Part shown: piece by piece, positions 507-18,655 of the stretch
Numbering within the stretch: the first letter of the stretch is position 1
Layout: every line of letters begins with the position of its first letter
DNA from: the human T2T-CHM13v2.0 reference genome, Homo sapiens
Direction: 5' to 3' (one strand)
Assembly: GCF_009914755.1 (NCBI RefSeq)
Contig: NC_060927.1
Length of the DNA: 64,000 bases
Notes under the pieces: generated by a model
The model's database searches: none
What the model was told of the DNA's origin: nothing
Seen by the model: only the letters and a program-made list of their open reading frames with translations
Position numbers and translations under genes: made by a program

Positions 507-586
507 ATGGCTATAAGTGCCAGATCTGCAGCTGTAGCTCTACTAGGAATGATGTTCCAACATCAACATAAGGGCTGTACTCCTTG
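507..586 (+). CDS. putative coding exon 1 (MAISARSAAVALLGMMFQHQHKGCTP)
   Basis: ATG at 507 in strong Kozak context (AGGATGG). Donor TG|GTATCT at 587 leaves phase 2, matching the phase-2 start of the exon at 1215 (TG+C = Cys). Confidence 0.5.
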
Positions 587-1214: not shown

Positions 1215-1359
1215 CTCCTCAGGTCAAAACACAAGTAGTCAAGAGATTTGTCCATCTAATTCATCATACTACTCTGATCCAAGTGAGACCCACACTGGGT
1301 CAGCTCCATCAAGGAGAAGAACATTCCACCCACGTTTGGATTCTGGAATATCATCCTTG
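1215..1359 (+). CDS. putative coding exon 2 (SSGQNTSSQEICPSNSSYYSDPSETHTGSAPSRRRTFHPRLDSGISSL)
   Basis: Acceptor ttttcttttactcAG, donor TTG|GTAAAT. 48 codons open in the phase-compatible frame; GC higher than flanks. Confidence 0.6.
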
Positions 1360-2315
1360 GTAAATATTTTTAATTAACTCTTTACCTGATGATAATTTTA
1401 TAGAACATATTTTATTTGATATTCAACGTTTCAAAATAAGTATATTAGCTGTTTATCCCTACCCTTGTAATTGTGAGAGGAGAAATGAAAAGTTGACACT
1501 CTCAGTTCCAATTCAAAGAGTAAAAAAGAAAGAAGTTGGATTGGAGGAAGGAAGATCAAAAAGGAGGAGAAGATGAGTAGAAAAGATAATGACCATTAAA
1601 GCCAAAATGGCACTCCTTCCTTTCTCCTGCTGAGTGCAAATTCTGTCTCTATTCTGCGATTTCCTTTCCTTTCTTTCTGGAATTTCCTTTGTCTGCAAGA
1701 TACATTTTTCTTTTTTCCTGAACTCACCACTTCTAAGACATTCTCTCTAAGCTATCTAACTGGAATCATACACGCCTTTTCCCCCTTCCCTTCATACATA
1801 ATTATTCTAGCCATCCCTCTGGCTTAAGGTGAGTTATTCAAATGTCTACCTGCCAAATTACAGAAAATTAGTTTTTCAAGCACAATTATCATGTTTTATT
1901 CAACTTTCTATCCCCAGTGTTTAACAGAATGCCTGACATATAATGTGGTAAAATATATATTTTTGAATAAAATGCGATGAAGCATGCTAGCATCAAAAAA
2001 TGTTTATTGAACAATATATTAATCAATTGGCCCATCAGAATTAAAAAAAGGAAAAATTACATGGCAAGACACAAATATTCGCTCTTCCTTTAGGAAGAAA
2101 CAACTGTCACACAGCTGCACCACTCTGACAACCTTACACAGAAATACATAAAAACATGCAGCAGCTCATTTTCCTACAATGTCAGAAGTTCCAAAATCAA
2201 CCACTTAGCTCCTTAAAAAATAAACGGGTTTTTGTACAAAAGTAGATGTCTGGTGAAAAATGAAAACTTTCCTCTCAAATACAGCTTTAGCTTAGAACAA
2301 TTTTTCTTTTCCCAG

Positions 2316-2363
2316 CACAAGCCTCATAAAATAACACAGAGGCAGTGGGTGTGGCAGTCCTAG
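2316..2363 (+). CDS. putative exon 3 (HKPHKITQRQWVWQS*), disabled: ends in TAG and in the wrong phase
   Basis: Strong acceptor tttttcttttcccAG and donor TAG|GTAACT. Phase-0 frame open for 15 codons; other two frames hit TAA early. Needs 49 nt to join the phase-1 exon at 10692. Confidence 0.55.
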   Translation, partial: HKPHKITQRQWVWQS

Positions 2364-4454
2364 GTAACTTAACTTCCAAGACATTTTTATTCTATAATAG
2401 AAGCAAGAAAAGAAAAATTCCAAACTCACATAAGGTGTTGGGAAAGAGGCTTCCATAATTATATAAACCAAACAGCCAAGAGTAGGTTGTAGGCTATATT
2501 CCTTAGTAATCTAAAATGTTTTGTGTTTATTGTTTTCCTAAAAGAATAGTACAACAGGATGATTTCATTTCTTGAAAGCACATTAACAAATCCTCAGAAT
2601 ATCTCCAAGAATTGCTCAAGCATAAGTTAACTTTTTAGTGTTACTGATAACAAGGTAGACAGCTTTTGTTACTAGTTCTATTTTTTAAATGAAGATATTG
2701 GGATATTTATTGGAGCAAGGCCAAGGTCATTCAGTGAGTAAGTAATGCAGCTAAAATATCAAAGTTAAATTATTATTAAAAAGCCAGCTCTTCTCAACTT
2801 ATTTTGGGGCAGCACTTGCCAAATTCTGCTCTAAAGAACAGAGTATTTGTTCCAAATACTTAACATTTTTTAAACTAAATATTCTGAGTTTGTTTGTACA
2901 CATGTTTAACTTTGGCTAACAGAAGAATGAATCTATGGTGTAAATATTTAATATAATATTCTTTTCAAGTAATGTGCCTTTTGTTTGTGTTAACCTTGAA
3001 ATAATAACAAGTTATATAAAACACTGGAACTTTGATTGACTACAACCTCAGTGTTAGTAAACAATTAAAATTGCCCCAAATGTGATCTTGGTACATGTTC
3101 TAGTCAGTAATATACTGTCCAGAAAAAGATAGCTTTACCTGAAATATTTCATTCAGTTTGATCTACACATTTTCAGAGCAATGTCAGTAAGTTGAAACTC
3201 TTTCCAAGAATAACCACCAAAATATTTACTAATTTATAGACCATTATCTATGAGTAATAATTGAATGACTTAGGAAGAGAATGACAACTATAATTAAACA
3301 TTTAAAACAGTAAGCATACGTGGAAGGATTCTCTGTGCAGCCTTGAAAAAATAGAACTTGTACAATTGGAGCAAGTTAGAGGGATTATGTAATAAGCAGG
3401 GTCCATGTAATGAAGACATTTTAACAATTAGAACTGTTATAAATGGAATGAGACTGCTCGTGAGATATTAAAAAATATTAAAGGATGATTTATATAAATT
3501 GGTCTAAAGGGGATCATGAATGGGTACATATATTTATTCATGCTGTCATTTACCATCAAATGTAAAACAGCTGCAGGTGTTGGGGATGCAAAATTGAATA
3601 AGAACACATAATTTAGATTGGATAAGATGATTTCCATGAGCACACCATTAGATATTTGGAGTTCAATTTGGCTAAGTGTTTGGCATGGATTTGCATTACT
3701 TTTACACACGGAAGCAAAAGAACTACATATTGCCAGATGATATAGTGTTTCTCTTCTCTCTTGTTTTAAAGCTTCCATCAGATTCTTGTAAGTACCTCAC
3801 TTGGCACAAGGTAGACATAACGTTCAAGGAAGTCAACTGCGTTGCCCAAGAGTAAGAGAAGGTAAAAGAATAAATGTGTGCCTTTTTCGTGTACATCCTC
3901 TGAATAGAATTTTTTGTGGATTAAAAGACATTACTTGAAGAAAAAAAAAAGACACCATTTGGAGGTAAAATTTTCCTTTTTCAAGACCATAGAATTGTTG
4001 ATAAGTGAAGCCACCTTTGAAGGTATATTCTTATAACTGATTATATAAATAACTAACATTCAGTAATAAATATTGGAAAATATTGAAAGATAAAGAAGAA
4101 CCTGTAACTGACTGTCCAGATTAACCACCGTGACTTTTATTTCCATTTACTTCTTACACACACATACATATATGTAATTTTTATTTCTTAAGTTTTTTCA
4201 CTTAACAGAATGATATTGTCAGCATTTCTTCCATGCCATTAAACATTACCCAAAACATACTTTTTAAAGCTTGCATACTTTTCCATCATATTAATATCAT
4301 TAAATATATTAAATATATGTAACCAATAATCGTTGTTGGAAATTTATTTACTATTTTTTATGATAACAAATAACACTGTCATTTCAACTGATGACTTTAC
4401 ATTGACTTAATTCTATATTGTTTTTTTCCAACAACATCAAAATAGAATCTAAAT

Positions 4455-5382
4455 GTGTTCATCAGTGTTCTCCAGAGAAATGGAACCAATAAAATACACC
4501 TCTCTCTCTCTCAACATATACATCTCTCTATATATATAAATCTATACATCGAGAGAGATATATATATATCTAAAGAGATAGATGATAGATAGATAGAGAG
4601 ATGAGACTTATTATAGGAATCACATGATTATAGAGACTGAGAAGTCCTACAATATGCCGTCTGTAAGCTGGAGAAACAGGGAGGCCAGTGGTAAAATTTG
4701 GTCTGTGTCTGAAGATCTGAAAATCAGGAGAGATGATAGTGTCACTCCATCAGGGTTATCAGGGGCCTCAATGGGTTGCATGATGCCTGCCCACATTGGT
4801 GAGGGCAAATCATTGCTCAGCCTGCTGATTCAAATGCTCATCTCTTCCAGAAATGCCCTCACAGGCTGTGATGGATAATTTTAGGTGTTAAATTGATTGC
4901 ATTTAAGAATAACTAGATAAACTGGTAAAGCATTATTTCTGGGAAAGTCTGTAAGGGCATTTCTGGAAGAGATTGGCATTTGAATCAGTGGATTGAGTAA
5001 GGAAGATCTGCCTCACCCAGTGTGGGTGGGCACTATCTAAGTGGTTGAGGACCTAGGGGGAACAAAAATGCAGAGAAACAATGAATTTGCTTTCTCTTTT
5101 GGAGGTGGGACACTAATCTTCTCCTGCCCTTGGACATAAGAATTCGAAGATCTCTGGCTTTTGGACTCTAGGACTTATATCAGCAGGCCGCCAGATTCTC
5201 AGGTGTTCTCAGGTCTTCATCCTCAGACTGAGTGACACCATCAGCTCTCCCGGTTCTTAGACCTTCAGACTCAGACTGAGTTACACCACTGGCTTCATGG
5301 GTTCTCCAGCTTGCAGATAGCATATGGTGGGACATCTCAGCCTCTATCATTATGTGAGCCAATTCCCATAATGACCCCCCTT

Positions 5383-5432
<50 letters not shown>

Positions 5433-5556
5433 CATATTGGTTCTGTTTCTCAGGAGAACTCTGACTAATACACAGACATATCCAGGAGTAATGTTTCACC
5501 TGTTGTCTGGGTATCCCTTAATTCAGTCAAGTTGATATCTAAAATTAACCATCACA
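4455..5556 (-). mobile_element. MLT2 (ERVL) LTR, split by a second MLT2
   Basis: ttctccagagaaatggaaccaata...aaatgccctcacag, resumes at 5473 to aaattaaccatcaca. Confidence 0.8.
4867..5472 (+). mobile_element. MLT2 (ERVL) solo LTR with (TCTA)n
   Basis: TGTGATGG...ctgactaatACA; flanks caggc/cagac (degenerate 5-bp TSD). Confidence 0.85.
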
Positions 5557-6364
5557 CTAAATAAACCAGGTAGTCTCATTTAACATTTTCACACAGCACT
5601 TTAAATTTGCTGGAATAACTATGTTTTGCTATTATTATTTTATTCTATCAGGTTTTACAAGGGTAATAGTATAACAATCTGAATAACCGCCATCTGCAGT
5701 CCTTGATATACATAATGTTTGATTTCAATAAGCAACTTTCAATAGATTATAAATTCTGTAAGAACAGAGGCCATGCATTTCTCATGTCTTTTTTTGCATC
5801 CACAAAAGCCAATGAAATAATATTAGACATAATTCCTGCTTCAGTGAGTGTTTAGTCTCCAGGAAACATCAAATCTTCGCTATCTTCCATCTATATTAGC
5901 AGATTTGCAGTAATATTGTATATTGCACAATTTTACTGTTGATTTAGGAAAAGTGGCTTTAGGTCTATTCATCTGCTCATTTTCCCTCTCAGTGGATCCC
6001 CACATGATGCTTGTCTTCTTTCACTCAAACTCAGTTGGCAAAAGAAGGGGAACTAAAATAGCGTAATTTTCTTATACTTTGAGTAAAATATGTTCTTATG
6101 CTTCAACTTTGTCAGCTCTATTTGCAGCCAAGCACTGACTCCTATTTTTAAAATGTGAGTAGATAGTACTACTAGGGATAAATCAGAGTTGTCCTTTCGG
6201 GACCTTGGGAAGATTTTTTTTTTTTTCCCAAGAGTGAGAAATTGTGAAGAATTAGGAAGGAAGGACACCAAGAGAAGTGGTGGCTGAGTGTGTCACATGT
6301 GTCAGGAGTCCTCCAGCAAAAGGAAGAGAGAGCTACGTCACAGGCTAAAGCAGGAAGGATTTTA

Positions 6365-6545
6365 GTCCTTAAGCTTTAGTGTGTGAACAAATCATCTTGA
6401 GGTGTGTGAAAAGTCAGATTCCTGGGCCCTACGCCCACTGAATCTGATGTAAGGGATGGCGCCCAGAATCCAGATTTGTAAAAAATTATCACAGGGAATT
6501 CTGTTGTAGATGATTTGAAGGCCATACTATGAGAAACACTGGTTT
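6365..6545. mobile_element. MER5-type hAT-Charlie DNA transposon fossil
   Basis: cagattcctgggccctacgcccactgaatc...gagaaacactggt. Confidence 0.65.
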
Positions 6546-9178
6546 AAGAGGTATGAAGAAAGGGAGAGAAGAAAGAAATTTGAATAGGAAGTGAATAGAC
6601 TGATAAGTAAAAATGCTGGCATGAGTGTGTGAGTGCAGAGGCAGATGGTTGATAATTGTGGCAGCCATCATAAGGCAAAAAGAAATCGTATTCTGAGCAC
6701 AAGTGCTGGGTCAGGGTTTAGAGAGAACTACAGAAACTAGAGATGACAAGGAAATAAAATGTGAGGGTAAACTGAAAATGAGCTTGTGCAGAGAATGTCC
6801 AAAGTTCTCCTTCTCTCCCTGACTTAAGTGGCCAGGTTATGTGCTGAGGTCATCACTCAGCAAAACCAATCCAATGTAATGACCATGGTGGCCATTCATG
6901 CAGAGGACATCATTGCTCTGCAGAGATAAAAGCACATTTTCCTTCTGTAGGTCATTAACAACACCCAATCTCTTGTAAGTGACTAGTCATAAAAGGACCA
7001 GAGCGTGATCTAGGGGATGGAAAACATTTGAAAAAATCCCATCTCCTCAAACCAGGGAGAAATAGATGTCCCTCCTTCATTGCTCTTAATTTTGTTTAAG
7101 TTTGTTTTGTGACATGGAGAACAAATGCTTTTCAAAAGCACTTTGAGAAGAATTACCCTCCTTCTAGATTAGATCTGGAAACACCCATCAAAGCTACTTC
7201 GGTTTATCTCAATTGCCTCAATTGTACATTCAGAAAGAGCTCATAAGACAGGAAAGGTTATCTGGTGTGTGATAAACAGCAATTGCCTAAGGCTTCGATT
7301 GCCAGATCAAGACTGACTTAAATTTTCACAATTAAATAAAGCAAAAAAGTAAACTGGTGGCAGAATTCTTTTAAAGAATAGATTCTTTCCATTCAAAAAT
7401 ATCCCGGGAAGTTAGTTCAGTGACTGCTATTATGTGTTACAAATCCAGTGAGGGGACAAAGAACAGGCTGAGAGGGAGCAAGTGAAAGTCAACATCCCTG
7501 AACTGTCAGATATTCCAGACTGTAGTTCAGCTGCTAAGATATATCTTCAATTACCAACCAAGTCTGAGAAAAAAAAGAAAAATCCAATTTAATTCAACTC
7601 CTCACAGTGGAAGTGAACTTCGGCCCCCAACTTCAAAGAAAGCTTTGAAAGCTACTTTAAAAAGAAATAATTAAAAGAGCAGAAGATCAATAACACTCAA
7701 ACAAACAATACAGGGAAGAGTTTAATAACTCTGGGTTATCTGATGTACAGAGAAAGCTGCCAAATTTGAAGTGGGGGTGGGTGAAAGACAATACAGCCTG
7801 AGGGTCTCCCTGCTCAATTAGGTGATTGCTCCAGTTTTCCACTTCTATGATTTTTAAATCCAAGCATCCTTATCAATGAAGAAGAACATTTCGTAACATA
7901 AGGATATTTTATTTGTAAGTCGGTTGAGATACTGCCTCATTCTGGGTCAAAGGATTTCCTGGGTGATAACAGCAGAGTTCATTATGAGAGAAATGACTGA
8001 AAGGGAAGTCTACACCCTGGCCTCCACCTGCCCCCGGTGTAAGAACTGATGTTCGTGCCGAAATAATAAAATACTGGACTCCCTCTTATTGCCTTCCATA
8101 AACTCTTCACAAATGAACTTACTACTTTCTATCATAGTCCACAAAAGCCCACAGGCCACAAAAGCAAAGTTTGTCTTTTGATGTCCTCAGTGTCCTTTTT
8201 CCTTTATTCTTTTACCTTTGAAATGAGGGGAGTCACGCATTCCAGAAACACAGAGTGGAGAAAGTGCATGCAAATGATACCAGATGTGACTCATAGAAAT
8301 ACACCATGATAGAGCTGGTAGGGAATTGAAGTAATTTAGTGTAGGGTTGCTTTCAGGGGCCTGGTTGACATAATATCAGAGTGAAGTTGACATAATATCA
8401 GAGGGAAGCACGAGAGAGTGTAGGGGCCTATGGCAATAAAAAAAGCCTATATTGTCCTTAAAGTACTAGAAATCAGTATTTTTGTAAAGCACCATACATG
8501 CCAAACAAACATGTTTTCTCACCAAATTCAGTTCGTGGTCAGCCCTTGATTTAGGTCTTCCCCCTATTTTTGCAGACATGAAAAACTGAAGATCAGGATA
8601 TTAAAATTAGTCATCTGGAGTCCCACATTTACCTACCAGCCAACTTCAGACTGCAAACAGGACATTCTTTCCCTAACCCTGAAAGTTGTGTGCAAACCTT
8701 ATTTGAAGGATGATAATGTTGGAAAATAGTGAGAAATGAGTTCAGAAATGGAAGTTGAGTTAAGATTATGGAAAGCCTTATCTGACAAGCTAGGATTTGT
8801 AGGCAAGAAGAAATTTCCGACATGTTTTCAGTAGTGAGTCCTGGGGTAAAAGCTGTGTTTTAGGAAGGTTGTATGGTAACGTTTGTTGTTTATATTGGAG
8901 GAGAGAATGTTGCAGGCAAGAAGATTCAAGAGAAAATAATTACAGTTTAAGTAGGAAGACATGAGAACCTGGACATTGAAAATGAAGGGACAGATTCTCA
9001 AAGGGAAAACTGCTAGGATAAGGTGACTAACTGAATTGAGACACAAAAGAGAAAGAAAATCAGGAATGACTTCACAATCCCCAAAGAGAAAATTATATGA
9101 AGATTAAATCACTATACTAGTGATTGTTCTCACTTGACTGGGCTAGAAATATTTATGTATGGTTAAAAGTTAATTCTA

Positions 9179-9504
<326 letters not shown>

Positions 9505-9751
9505 CTACCATTAATAGAAGTAACTCCCTTCTCCTTTTAATAGTTCTAGAAAGCAATTAAATTATCTGTGAACCTTGAAATATATGCCCAGAATTTAAGG
9601 TATAAAAAATAGAGATATTTTATATTTTAACTGTCACATTTTCATAGTGATGTGCTAAATCTGAATTAAAAATAAATCTATGAGTGAAATTTTAAGCTAA
9701 AGGTCATCTGCAGTAACTTAGACCATGGATAGTATAAAAAAGGACAATTTA

Positions 9752-10053
9752 GGCCTGGCGCGGTGGTTCACGCCTGTAATCCCAGCACTTTGGGAGGCCG
9801 AGGCAGGTGGATCACGAGGTCAGGAGATCGAGACCATCCTGGCTAACACAGTGAAATCCCATCTCTACTGAAAATACAAAAAATTAGCCAGGCGTGGTGG
9901 CGGGCGCCTGTAGTCCCAGCTACTCAGGAGGCTGAGACAGGAGAATGGCGTAAACCCAGGGGGCGGAGCTTGCAGTGAACCAAGATAGCGCCACTACACT
10001 CCAACCTGGGAGACAGAGCAAGACTCCGTCTCAAAAAAAAAAAAAAAAAAAAA
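9752..10053 (+). mobile_element. Alu (AluY/Sc-type)
   Basis: gatcgagaccatcctggctaaca diagnostic segment, CpG-rich, near-TSD aaaag(g/a)acaattta. Confidence 0.95.
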
Positions 10054-10691
10054 GAACAATTTAAATAACCTAATAACCTTATAACCTATATTATAGCCTT
10101 AATATAGTTTAAAAAAAAACTTTCCTTTGCTTTTTAAGCAAAGAAGATGAAAAAGAAATAAAGTTGCTGATTTGTTTCATATTTCCCCTTTTTTGTATTA
10201 CTCATCTTGTTTTGAGAGGGCTCGGTAGTAAGCCCCTCACACACAGCCACAGGCTCCTATAGCAGAAGGATAGTGAGAAAACTGAGTGGTTTAGATATTT
10301 AATAGTCATATTTTGATTAATTTATTATTGTCATAACTGTGAATCTGATTTAGTGTTGTCAAATAAGAGGTTTAGCTCAATTTTCCTTAGAAGAAATGAG
10401 AGGAAAGTTAGTTGGCAAAATTAAAAAAAAAATGATTTTCAACTATTAGAAAATGAAAAATGTGGTGAAGTCCTGGATCTTTTCCTGTCTTCAACCTTTC
10501 CCCCAACCAGGTTAGGAAGACAGGAGTGGGTTAAATCATTTTATTACTGCTCATACTATGTGGGTCAAATCATGCTTCCCCAAGTTGTGATATCTAGTGG
10601 GAGTTTCAAACAACTGGCCAATAGCAAGTGAAGATACCAGTCCTGCCCCCTAAACATACTTCCAAAATCTCAACTTGTGGTTCTTATCTAG

Positions 10692-10810
10692 GAATCTCTG
10701 AAGAAGAGCAACTTTTCAGACAGGTAGAGTGTGCCTTGCTCCCAAGGAAAAGAGTTCTTGAAAAAAACAAATGGGAAACATGGCTACAAGAAAACTGGGA
10801 AGACTGCAAG
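10692..10810 (+). CDS. exon 4 ((G)ISEEEQLFRQVECALLPRKRVLEKNKWETWLQENWEDCK)
   Basis: Acceptor ttcttatctAG, donor AAG|GTGAGA. Phase-0 end joins the exon at 12968 in frame. Confidence 0.75.
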
Positions 10811-12967: not shown

Positions 12968-13110
12968 AATTTGAACATTTCATTTCAGGGTTTGGGGGAT
13001 CCTTACCAAGTTGAAAATTTTAACAGAATTCTTAGAAGACTAATTCGAGTTGAAACCCTCTGGTTAGTGGATAATTCACTGGTGGACTTAAGTGCCATAA
13101 GATTGCCAAG
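12968..13110 (+). CDS. exon 5, LRRs ([47 protein letters not shown])
   Basis: Long pyrimidine tract ending tcctcAG, donor AAG|GTATCT. LRR motif [11 protein letters not shown]. Confidence 0.85.
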
Positions 13111-15204: not shown

Positions 15205-15402
15205 CTGCAGAATTTTAAATATGAGCAAAAACCATCTCATATCTTTCAAACAGTTACCAAGGATACCTCAGATACAGCATTTATCCTTGGCCGAAAACCA
15301 CATTGAGACTCTAACTGGATTCTCCAGTTTACGGTGCACTCCACTGGAATCCCTTATTCTCAAGAGGAACCCTTGTGAGTTCCACCAAAATTACAGGAAG
15401 CA
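15205..15402 (+). CDS. exon 6, three LRRs and start of LRRcap ([14 protein letters not shown]...[14 protein letters not shown]...[19 protein letters not shown])
   Basis: Acceptor tcttttgtatccAG, donor CA|GTAAGG. Phase 2/2 fits both neighbours; canonical LxxLxLxxN spacing. Confidence 0.9.
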
Positions 15403-18400
15403 GTAAGGCCGCAGACACACTAAGTCATCTTTTGCACTTCATTGAATATTATACTTTTAACTATATTTTAAAATATTGTCCCTCTCTTGCTCAAATTTAC
15501 CCAGCAAATACTTATAGAATCTACTCTATGTTGAACACTTCATGCTTCTGATCTCACCTAAAGACTTTTGAACTAATCTTTCTTCATCTTTTTACAATTT
15601 TTTCTTAATATACTCTTTTCTCTTGGTTAATTTATAGTTACTGTGCAGATTTTTAGGCTCCTTCTGTAATGACTTTACCTATACAAAGTTGTTTAATTTT
15701 AGACTTTCAAATTCCACATTTTCTCCCACATGCTTAATAGATATTATGTCTTTTAAAAAATTATACATACATATATATTTTATTAAGTTCTATGTGACAA
15801 TTTTATGAATTGTTTATTCTCTGGTTTTACTTTCACTCTTTGGGCCCCAAGGGCAACATTAAGTGAATACGAAGAATTCAATTTACTCCAGTGCTTGAAA
15901 GAGCTCAAAAACCTGCCAAGAAGAAACCATTTTTATTACTTTGTCACAACTGGGAACATTCCTAATGATAATAATGGAACCTAAACCTTGAAGTGTGCAC
16001 CCAGTAATATGCCCACCTATTTATCTCCAGCTAATTCCCAGTACCACTAATTAGTGTACTTAGGGGAATTAAAAGAATAAAAACAAGCAACTGAATTCTA
16101 CAACCTGTATTTCCACCCATGACTGAGGTCATCTCCCCTCCCAGGCGAATCTGTCAAACAAAGAGTTATATCATCTCCAGGGTCCATTTATATTCTATGA
16201 TTACAATCTTTTGTTTACTTCAATTTCAGTAAAAGACGTAGTTTTCACCATCTTCTTTTCTCACACTGCTCTTTTCCCATGAACAGCAACTGTATTCCAG
16301 AAGCCTATATGATGTTAGACTCTTCAACGCCTGACGTACAATGAAAATTTGTCAAAATAGAAATTATAATCTCTGTTGTTACATAAATCTCATTACTCCA
16401 GTTGTCTGCCCTATGACTGGAGTCTGGAAGCAAAATTTCATGTCTGTGATGATAATAAATTCTTAAATTGCTTTCACATAACAGTGAAAACTAGCAGCAC
16501 AGTTGCTGTAATATTGAGCTAATATTTAACCATAATAATATTTTGGAGGTTTAAAATTATATTTCCTATAATCAGAGGAGGTTTAGCTGGACATTTCAAC
16601 ATCATTCATAAGAAAGCACAGTCCTAGTCATAAGGATAATTTAATAGTATTGTATTTCAGTTTTGTTAATTCATATGTGGGGTTTTATAAAGCATTTTGG
16701 TCCCAACTCAGCCACTTGCCTCTCTTCAAAGAATGCCTTACAATAATAGTATTAAGATGAATTGTCTGAAATTGGATATGCCCTGAGGTCTTACTGTAAT
16801 TCCGTCTACAAAATTCATGATGTGGTATAGAGTTATGTAGGAATGAGGGATATAATGAGGTTCTTCTGTTTTTCCAGTATTAACTCTATTGGATTGAGTC
16901 CAAGGTGTATATACGCTGACTTTCAAGTTAGAAAAAGCCAGGTTATATTAACTTAGGTAGTGCAGGGTTACATTGAATAGAATGATGGGGTCATTTTAGA
17001 GTATGAAGAAAAGGTTTAAGCATCCACTCATGCTAAGGAACTAAGTTGGAATCAGAAGTTCATTCAAACATGGATTCAGTTACCCAGCCAAAAATCCACA
17101 CCTTGAAGATTATAACAGCTTTCATTTTGTCACTGGGTATCTGTGTTGAGGATTTGGGCCAGAGCTTCAGATGACTCTTTTTACACACCATGCTCAGAAT
17201 TATTTAAAGTACAAGCTTTTCTTGACCATTATCACCTAGAATTGTGACTGCTTTCCCTTCCTCCTTTGTTTCAGATCCACCAATAAGAAGACAGCACAAT
17301 TCAAAAGAGAAAGGACTTAATGACAGAGCTAATAATGTAAATCCCAGTAGGTTAGAAGGTGGCCCCATTTCTGGGACACCTACAGGCAAACTTCTCTATC
17401 ATTCTCTAGGAGTCAAACATGATATTAGTTCATTACTGCTTAACTTAAAAAAAAAATCAGTGGCTAGAAATTCTTGCCAGCTAAGTATGAATTTTGAAGC
17501 CAGAAGACATAGATTTTAATATTTGCTTTGTCACCTACAGGCCTTATGATTTTGAATAAGTTACTTAAAATGAGGGATAAAAACCAATCTGACAGAGTTG
17601 TTGTGAGGATTTAAAGAGATGCATAGGAAGCAATTCATGTTAAGAAAATCATGCAGCCAATGGGGGCTTTCAAGGAGGTCAGTTCCATCATTAGCTGACT
17701 TAGCATATCTGCTAAAAGGTTTCAGTATCTTTCATGCAGGCAAATTCAAATGCCATAGATTTCTCCCAGCCAGAGCCCTCAGAATTCCCAGATCTAGAAA
17801 AGCTGTCATTCTAAAGAAAATGCTGCTTTTTAATGCCGCTATGTACATGACCACTGTTAACTGGATTGAACTGAAGGATCTGTTTCTGAACATAGAAGTG
17901 ACTCCCTGAATTTGAAATAGGAGCTTTAGAAGTGCTCGCTTTCAGGAAAAAATAACAGCATAATATTATTTCCCACTCCCTCTTTTATATTTATCAGCCA
18001 GAATTCTTCTTTAACTATCACTGAATATTGTGGGCTTGCTTTACTTTCTCTCTCTTTCTAAACTTTTAACTTTGTAATGAGCATATATATCATGATCTCA
18101 TTCTTTCTCTCATGGTTAGTTGGCTAAATCCACTCATTGATTTTTTTTCCCTTATAAGACTGTAAAAACTGGAATGAAATTCTCTTATAAAAACAGATTG
18201 TAGACAGTCCCATTTCTCTGATCAATATTTACCACCTGCTGAAAGATCTATTAGATCCCTGAAAGGGCAAGCTATGGCAAGGTCATCAGGTCAATTAATA
18301 TGAATAATATTTTATTTTAGCTCTACTGCAAAGATAAGCAACACAGAATGAAGTGATAGCCATTCATCTTCCTTATAACAATAGGCAAAGTCCATTCACT

Positions 18401-18470: not shown

Positions 18471-18582
18471 AGTATTCTCCTGTTTGCCAAACTTAAAAAT
18501 GCTGGATGGAATCTTGAAGCTACCAGAAGATTGCTTATCACCAGAAACCAATATTTTTTCAAAAATATGCCTTGTGTCCTAA
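18471..18582 (+). CDS. terminal coding exon 7 ([36 protein letters not shown])
   Basis: T-rich acceptor ttttgctttAG. Completes LRRcap [17 protein letters not shown] across the junction. TAA at 18580-18582. Confidence 0.9.
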
Positions 18583-18628: not shown

Positions 18629-18655
18629 AATAAACACAGGACATGCATGATTAAA
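18629..18655 (+). terminator. polyadenylation signals of the LRR gene (AATAAA 18629-18634; ATTAAA 18650-18655)
   Basis: About 47 nt after the stop, followed by a T-rich downstream element. Confidence 0.65.

What the first reader, a model, noticed from the sequence alone, without database searches (positions are those of the whole stretch)
2316..2363. A single missing base appears to be the only lesion in the gene
Seen: exon 3 reads ...cag tgg gtg tgg cag tcc TAG|gt. It ends in phase 0 with a stop, while exon 4 needs phase 1. One added base (e.g. tcc cta g|ga, giving WVWQSLG-ISEEE) makes an open 846-nt CDS (281 aa). The other six exons have no stops or frameshifts, and their splice sites and polyA signal are intact. 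Inference: very recent, possibly lineage-specific gene loss, a segregating null allele, or an assembly error. As written, the mRNA makes a 90-aa peptide and should be an NMD target. The exact position of the lost base is a guess.
Basis: partly seen in the sequence, partly recalled or inferred. Interest (0 to 1): 0.82.

Follow-up and report, generated by a model that had tools for sequence, protein, structure and literature searches.

The report
Decoy exon; real frameshift is elsewhere
The flagged 48-base "exon" is a chance pair of splice-like sites inside an intron of the known human pseudogene LRRC77P, and the break that really disables the gene is a four-base shortfall in its true third exon about 1.5 kb downstream.

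Summary
Window 2316-2363 is 48 nt, follows cag|, is open in frame 0 and ends TAG|gt. The arithmetic also holds: 90 aa as written, 846 nt / 281 aa with one extra base.

The segment is not an LRRC77 exon. In 110 of 120, a 32-residue peptide lies between the exon-2 and exon-4 peptides. It maps to the RefSeq exon 3772-3861.

In human that exon is 90 nt where orthologues imply 94. Two codons are replaced by GA at 3814-3815, and the shifted frame stops at TAA 3853-3855. With XX at the break, the seven true exons read 273 aa with no other stop, the same length as macaque. This includes an intact ATG exon upstream of the window. All splice sites are canonical and the genome holds no second copy.

So "one small indel is the only lesion" holds, but at a different site and size. 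The gene is already annotated as a transcribed pseudogene. Interest is low.

The parts
2316..2363 (+). The flagged 48-nt segment. It is a decoy splice-site pair inside intron 2 of LRRC77P, not an exon.
   Evidence: The sequence is as described. Its peptide is in 0 of 120 orthologues. No tblastn hit from 10 orthologues. It is one of 39 such pairs in 1380-10670. The 2200-2480 stretch is single copy in the genome.
507..586 (+). It is spurious and lies in intron 1.
   Evidence: Its peptide is in 0 of 120 orthologues. The real first coding exon (ATG TCT GAA AG|gtaaga) is at window -6021..-6011, which is L002 2979-2989. That exon gives the MSES start shared with primate orthologues.
1215..1359 (+). 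True coding exon 2 (145 nt, phase 2 in, phase 0 out), intact.
   Evidence: 96% identity to macaque P0017 residues 4-53 by tblastn. Canonical ag|...|gt. RefSeq exon.
3772..3861 (+). True coding exon 3. It is 90 nt in human, while orthologue proteins imply 94 nt (31 codons + 1 base).
   Evidence: Orthologues align in frame 1 over 3772-3813 and in frame 3 from 3816 on. The exon-3 peptide is present in 110 of 120 orthologues, and 106 align without gaps across the break. RefSeq exon of the second transcript.
3814..3815 (+). The break. Two bases (GA) stand where orthologues have two codons (E-Q), a net loss of 4 nt.
   Evidence: The exact deleted bases cannot be fixed without ape DNA.
3853..3855 (+). 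Premature TAA in the shifted frame. It gives a 79-aa product that lacks all LRRs.
   Evidence: As-is translation. Pfam LRR matches in orthologues start at about residue 146.
10692..10810 (+). True coding exon 4 (119 nt, phase 1 in, phase 0 out), open.
12968..13110 (+). True coding exon 5 (143 nt), with the first LRRs, open.
15205..15402 (+). True coding exon 6 (198 nt, LRRs and the start of the LRR cap), open with canonical sites. It is absent from the transcript listed in the hub table.
   Evidence: (120 listed proteins match it, up to 96% identity).
18471..18582 (+). Coding part of exon 7 up to TAA 18580-18582. It ends at the same residue as the orthologues. AATAAA lies at 18629.

Best explanation
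The window holds LRRC77P, the single human copy of the vertebrate gene LRRC77. LRRC77 encodes a ~273-aa protein with SDS22-like leucine-rich repeats and an LRR cap.

The flagged 48-nt segment is an intronic decoy, a chance acceptor-like and donor-like pair. It is not part of the gene.

The gene is disabled in its true exon 3 (3772-3861). Four bases are missing at 3814-3815 relative to the length kept in orthologues from amphibians to apes. Reading shifts by one frame and stops at TAA 3853-3855. That leaves a 79-aa product without any LRR, and a stop several junctions upstream of the last exon.

Shown: the exon map, the frame switch, the stop, the intact remainder and the single-copy status.

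Inferred: that the event was one 4-nt deletion, that the transcript undergoes NMD, and that the event lies on the human lineage after the gorilla split. Whether chimpanzee shares it was not testable.
For: -: 120 vertebrate LRRC77 proteins are listed, including mouse 'Leucine rich repeat containing 77'. They were retrieved with exon 6.
- tblastn of 10 orthologues maps them to 1215-1359, 3772-3861 (frame 1 then frame 3), 10692-10810, 12968-13110, 15205-15402 and 18471-18579. None maps to 2316-2363 or 507-586.
The two halves of the true exon 3 hit 99 and 109 of 120.
- the macaque exon-3 peptide is found in 110 of 120 orthologues. 106 align ungapped across the break, 3 have compensating gaps and 1 has an in-frame one-residue gap. 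The other 10 are partial or alternative models.
- the as-is reading stops after 79 aa. With XX at the break the reading is 273 aa with no other stop, and all six in-window exons have ag|...|gt.
- the upstream exon has ATG and a gtaaga donor.
- macaque LRRC77 matches the human genome only at this locus. All five matches at E <= 0.001 lie here, out of 66 candidates scored.
- (passages of PMC13491712): cattle LRRC77 lies within 0.5 Mb of GOLIM4, as in the hub table for human.
- Hub table: RefSeq calls the locus a transcribed pseudogene and lists exon 3772-3861.
Against: - No primate DNA was available, so the 4-nt loss is inferred from protein models only. Most of those are automatic predictions.
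- Several ape models are odd isoforms. Gorilla P0065 and Pongo P0002 lack part of exon 5 and use another 3' end.
- My splice-site scan is crude and misses the true exon 3 acceptor.
- I could not see transcript or RNA-seq data, so rare inclusion of 2316-2363 in some human transcripts is not excluded.
- Human-lineage residue changes at otherwise conserved positions were read by eye. They suggest constraint may have been relaxed for some time, so the frameshift need not have been the first event. Examples are P to I at the start of exon 4 and D to G in exon 5.
Confidence: 0.9

Rival explanations
1. One reading: 2316-2363 is the ancestral exon 3 of the gene, and one base lost near 2359-2361 is the only lesion.
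For: The acceptor tract is strong and the donor is fair.
Against: The peptide is absent from 120 of 120 orthologues. The place between the exon-2 and exon-4 peptides is filled in 110 of 120 by the peptide of 3772-3861. The model also needs an 'exon 1' that no orthologue has, while the real ATG exon lies upstream of the window. Three other decoys fit with no repair at all.
Confidence: 0.02
2. 2316-2363 is a real but young, non-conserved alternative exon (a 'poison' exon with an in-frame TAG), included in a minority of human LRRC77P transcripts.
For: Splice-like flanks are comparable with those of the real exons. The locus shows much alternative splicing in primate models. Examples are the alternative exon at 5171-5257 in Hylobates P0122 and the alternative 3' exon at 17275-17320.
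Against: It is in neither of the two RefSeq transcripts of the hub table, and no protein model of any species uses it. About 39 comparable pairs lie in the same 9.3 kb.
Confidence: 0.06
3. The 4-nt shortfall in exon 3 is an assembly error or a private allele of this assembly, and most humans carry an intact LRRC77.
For: I could consult no population or read data. Everything else in the gene is intact.
Against: RefSeq curates the locus as a transcribed pseudogene and places a 90-nt exon at 3772-3861 from its own transcript (hub table). No cluster named for Homo sapiens appears among the LRRC77 proteins returned, and nothing of 26-84 aa was found. Clusters at 90% identity could hide members, so this is weak evidence. 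The break is not in a homopolymer.
Confidence: 0.03

Closest known systems
LRRC77 (mouse Lrrc77 A0A1B0GT72, cattle LRRC77 and unnamed LOC models in about 120 vertebrate clusters)
   Same: The exon-by-exon match runs from 96% identity (exon 2, macaque) down to 43-85% (chicken). The exon order, phases and C-terminal end are the same. The neighbour GOLIM4 is also shared (hub table).
   Different: The human copy is 4 nt short in exon 3 and stops after 79 aa. The listed human RefSeq transcript also omits exon 6 and adds downstream non-coding exons (hub table).
Unitary pseudogenes of the human lineage (genes with no functional paralogue, lost by a small frameshift; the class name is recalled, not from a call)
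   Same: The locus is single copy. The orthologue is conserved in other vertebrates. There is one small frame-breaking indel, the structure is otherwise intact and the locus is still transcribed (hub table).
   Different: Nothing distinguishes it from the class. Whether the loss is human-only or shared with chimpanzee is unknown.
SDS22-like LRR plus LRR-cap proteins (PPP1R7/SDS22, LRRC23, ANP32, DRC3, axonemal dynein light chain 1)
   Same: The intact orthologues match PPP1R7 chains at E 2.4e-9 and LRRC23 at 1.3e-8 over residues 146-250. They also match Pfam LRR_4, LRR_9 and LRR_NXF1-5.
   Different: Only the C-terminal ~110 residues resemble these proteins. The N-terminal ~125 residues (exons 1-4) match no Pfam family. 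No function is known for LRRC77. The human product would lack the LRR part altogether.

Membership tests
Conserved coding exon of LRRC77 (claim for 2316-2363) | The encoded peptide is present at the corresponding place in orthologous proteins | tested here: not met
   0 of 120 orthologues at E <= 0.01. No tblastn hit from 10 orthologues.
Conserved coding exon of LRRC77 (claim for 2316-2363) | Phase-compatible with its neighbours and open | tested here: not met
   It is 48 nt, runs phase 0 to phase 0 and ends in TAG, while exon 4 needs phase 1.
Conserved coding exon of LRRC77 (claim for 2316-2363) | Splice-site-like flanks beyond chance | tested here: inconclusive
   The flanks are good. However, 39 comparable pairs lie in 1380-10670, and 3 of them fit phase and frame with no repair. 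The scan is crude.
Conserved coding exon of LRRC77 (claim for 2316-2363) | Present in annotated or observed transcripts | not testable with these tools
   It is absent from the two RefSeq transcripts in the hub table. No RNA-seq or GENCODE data were on hand.
LRRC77 orthologue, unitary pseudogene | Exon-by-exon similarity to LRRC77 proteins in conserved order and phase | tested here: met
LRRC77 orthologue, unitary pseudogene | No other copy in the same genome | tested here: met
   All five matches of macaque P0017 at E <= 0.001 lie in this locus, out of 66 candidates scored.
LRRC77 orthologue, unitary pseudogene | A frame-breaking lesion in a conserved coding exon | tested here: met
   Frame 1 switches to frame 3 at 3814-3815 and TAA follows at 3853-3855. 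The exon-3 length is kept in 109 of the 110 orthologues that carry it, the exception being one in-frame residue loss.
LRRC77 orthologue, unitary pseudogene | Conserved gene neighbourhood | tested here: met
   GOLIM4 is the next gene in human (hub table), and it lies in the same 1-Mb interval as LRRC77 in cattle (passages of PMC13491712). Only these two species were seen.
NMD substrate | Stop codon more than about 50-55 nt upstream of the last exon-exon junction (rule recalled) | tested here: met
   The stop is in exon 3, with at least three junctions downstream (hub table). Actual decay is not testable here.
SDS22-like LRR / LRR-cap proteins (for the intact orthologues) | Pfam LRR models above the curated cut-off | tested here: inconclusive
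   LRR_4 scores 35.4 bits (mouse) and 29.8 bits (cow) against a cut-off of 27, but 24.1 bits in macaque. LRR_9 scores 26-30.2 bits against 30.5. PDB: PPP1R7 at E 2.4e-9.

The most novel reading that the evidence does not exclude
LRRC77 is kept from amphibians to Old World monkeys and is becoming dispensable in anthropoid primates. It has been broken several times independently. Human has the 4-nt loss in exon 3. The Nomascus model (P0121) and the Callithrix model (P0004) each run into a shifted frame within exon 4. The human event would be specific to Homo, after the chimpanzee split.
Probability: 0.25. Interest if true: 0.35.

Novelty: already known. Interest (0 to 1): 0.15.

Why it matters
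The finding corrects a false lead. There is no lost base at 2359-2361, and no 281-aa protein to look for. The report gives the actual lesion of LRRC77P (net -4 nt at 3814-3815, stop at 3853-3855) and a complete seven-exon coding map. That map includes an intact LRR exon (15205-15402) that the listed RefSeq transcript omits, and the ATG exon upstream of the window. None of the six papers that name LRRC77P or LRRC77 appears to describe the lesion. I judged this from their titles and abstract openings and from passages of three of them. As biology it is an ordinary unitary pseudogene, of modest use to people who catalogue gene losses on the human lineage.

Tried and rejected
- Searches failed on a wrong frame and a peptide that was too short. 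They were corrected.
- Pfam on single human exons gave only LRR matches for exon 6. Exon 4 had only sub-threshold chance hits.
- A search for a short human or chimpanzee truncated protein (26-84 aa) with exon 2 found nothing.
- The 'longer' search with exon 2 returned 16 proteins at E <= 0.001 out of 22 candidates. None is named for Homo or Pan. Clusters at 90% identity may hide such members, so chimpanzee status stays open.
- I considered whether an alternative acceptor inside exon 3, or the long form 3772-3964 (193 nt, also phase 0 to 1), could rescue the frame. The long form has four stops in frame 0. By my reading, the AGs inside the exon at 3780-3781 and 3791-3792 do not open the needed frame.
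- I tried to date the loss from lineage-specific residue changes read by eye. The counts are too small, and Pongo also changes fast, so no conclusion was drawn.
- No fold, complex or RNA-family search was run, because none bears on the question.

Full report
**1. The observation**

A 12-of-12 pyrimidine tract and cag precede 48 nt that are open in frame 0 and end ...cag tcc TAG, followed by gtaact.

As written it stops after 90 aa. With one placeholder base it is 846 nt / 281 aa without an internal stop. The description and the sums are therefore correct.

**2. Is it an exon?**

I searched the 5.8-billion-protein collection with the translated LRR exon 15212-15400. The call found 126 candidates, 121 of them at E <= 0.001, and listed 120. 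They run from amphibians and birds to apes, and include mouse 'Leucine rich repeat containing 77' (P0020) and models from cow, pig, macaque, gorilla and orang-utan.

I ran tblastn of four of them (macaque, cow, mouse, chicken) and six more primate models against the window. This gives one consistent exon map:

| Exon | Window coordinates |
|---|---|
| 2 | 1215-1359 |
| 3 | 3772-3861 |
| 4 | 10692-10810 |
| 5 | 12968-13110 |
| 6 | 15205-15402 |
| 7 (coding part) | 18471-18579 |

Nothing maps to 2316-2363 or to 507-586.

- The true exon peptides hit between 70 and 120 of 120.
- Between the exon-2 peptide (...DSGISSL) and the exon-4 peptide (PSEEE...), orthologues carry a 32-residue peptide that starts LPSDSCKYL.
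- The macaque version of that peptide is found in 110 of 120 orthologues. In 106 it aligns without gaps, in 3 with compensating gaps, and in 1 with a one-residue in-frame gap. The 10 without it are partial or alternative models.
- This peptide is encoded by 3772-3861, which the hub's table lists as a RefSeq exon.

**3. Is the flagged pair more than chance?**

A crude scan of 1380-10670 found 29 acceptor-like sites, 67 donor-like sites and 39 pairs of 30-250 nt. The flagged segment is one of the 39. Three others (5269-5353, 5317-5353, 7168-7264) are open in phase 0 and have length 1 mod 3, so they would join exon 2 to exon 4 with no repair. A candidate that needs a repair is therefore not special.

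The scan's acceptor rule misses the true exon 3, which has A at -3, and this shows its limits. The stretch 2200-2480 is single copy in the genome.

**4. What is really broken**

Orthologues align to 3772-3813 in frame 1 and from 3816 onward in frame 3. Between the codon for V (3811-3813) and the codon for H (3816-3818), human has two bases (GA) where orthologues have two residues (E-Q in most mammals). Human exon 3 is 90 nt. Thirty-one codons plus one base imply 94 nt, which is exactly the phase 0-to-1 exon that exon 4 requires.

Read as it stands, the frame runs on to TAA at 3853-3855 and yields 79 aa. Pfam LRR matches in the orthologues start at about residue 146, so this product lacks every repeat.

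**5. Is it the only lesion?**

I fetched the 9 kb upstream of the window from the same assembly. ATG TCT GAA AG|gtaaga lies at window -6021..-6011, about 126 nt downstream of the annotated transcript start. It supplies the MSES start seen in primate orthologues.

Joining the seven true exons with XX at the break gives 273 aa with no other stop. That is the same length as macaque P0017 and it ends at the same residue. All six in-window exons have ag|...|gt, and AATAAA follows the stop at 18629.

The macaque protein matches the human genome only here: all five matches at E <= 0.001 lie in this locus, out of 66 candidates scored. So this is a unitary pseudogene with one frame-breaking lesion.

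**6. Timing**

Exon 3 is unbroken in the protein models of gorilla, orang-utan, two gibbons, macaque, snub-nosed monkey, capuchin, squirrel monkey, marmoset and lemurs. The shortfall therefore arose on the human lineage after the gorilla split.

No cluster named for Pan or Homo appeared. Clusters at 90% identity can hide members, so chimpanzee status is open.

Reading by eye, human has several changes at otherwise conserved positions: P to I at the start of exon 4, D to N in exon 3, D to G in exon 5, and T to I in exon 6. This fits relaxed constraint for some time, but orang-utan also changes fast and the counts are too small to date anything.

**7. Mechanism**

Shown: the frameshift, the premature stop and the loss of all LRRs.

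Inferred: the stop sits several junctions upstream of the last exon, so the spliced RNA should be an NMD substrate. The locus persists as a transcribed non-coding RNA. It is treated as a lncRNA in an expression study (passage of PMC8291889).

The intact protein resembles SDS22-like LRR plus cap proteins. It matches PPP1R7 at E 2.4e-9 and LRRC23 at 1.3e-8, and also ANP32, DRC3 and dynein light chain 1. Its own function is unknown.

The only mentions I found are a mouse spatial-transcriptomics marker (passage) and a cattle GWAS interval that places LRRC77 near GOLIM4 (passages). The cattle interval matches the human neighbourhood in the hub table.

**8. Literature**

Searches for 'LRRC77P' (4 papers) and 'LRRC77' (2 papers) were made. 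I saw titles and abstract openings for all six, and passages of three. None appears to deal with the lesion or its evolution. I did not read supplements. Older catalogues of human unitary pseudogenes could list the locus under another identifier, and I did not search for that.

**9. Verdict**

The flagged exon and its missing base are not real. The gene-level phenomenon is real but already annotated: LRRC77P, a transcribed pseudogene. Novelty is 'already known' and interest is low.

Noticed in passing
window 15205-15402: An intact 198-nt LRR exon with canonical splice sites, matched by all 120 listed orthologues. The exon list of NR_033843.2 in the hub table omits it. Skipping it keeps the frame.
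   Followed up: partly
window 17275-17320: An alternative 3' coding exon (cag|A TCC ACC ... TAA) that gives the ending ...STNKKTAQFKRERT. The same ending closes the protein models of Pongo, Rhinopithecus, lemurs, Otolemur and Tupaia. In another frame it supplies PPIRRQHNSKEKGLNDR in gorilla and capuchin models.
   Followed up: partly
window 10749-10810 (exon 4) compared with P0121 and P0004: The Nomascus model (147 aa) and the Callithrix model (224 aa) leave the conserved frame inside exon 4 near the A-run after ...VLEK. Nomascus runs to a stop in exon 5. Callithrix skips exon 5 and regains the frame. These may be independent frameshifts in other primates, or assembly or annotation errors.
   Followed up: partly
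window 5171-5257: Hylobates moloch isoform X2 (P0122) ends in a 29-residue peptide that matches this intronic stretch at 86% identity. It is an alternative terminal exon in gibbon.
   Followed up: no
window 5269-5353, 5317-5353, 7168-7264: Three decoy AG...GT segments that are open in phase 0 and have length 1 mod 3. They would link exons 2 and 4 perfectly, yet no orthologue uses them.
   Followed up: partly
L002 2964-2989 (window about -6036..-6011): Non-primate mammals start M-H/P-Q-Q-D-M-S-E. Human has TTG CAC CTG CAA GAC before the ATG, so the upstream start seems to have been lost, and primate models begin at MSES.
   Followed up: partly
window 3772-3964: The long RefSeq form of exon 3 is 193 nt (also phase 0 to 1) but carries four stops in frame 0, so it cannot rescue the reading frame.
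   Followed up: yes
window 13052-13062 / 15205: Gorilla, Pongo and Tupaia models join ...RVETL directly to CCRILNM, dropping 16 residues of exon 5. On the human sequence this would need a donor after 13062 followed by GC. It may be a conserved alternative splice.
   Followed up: no
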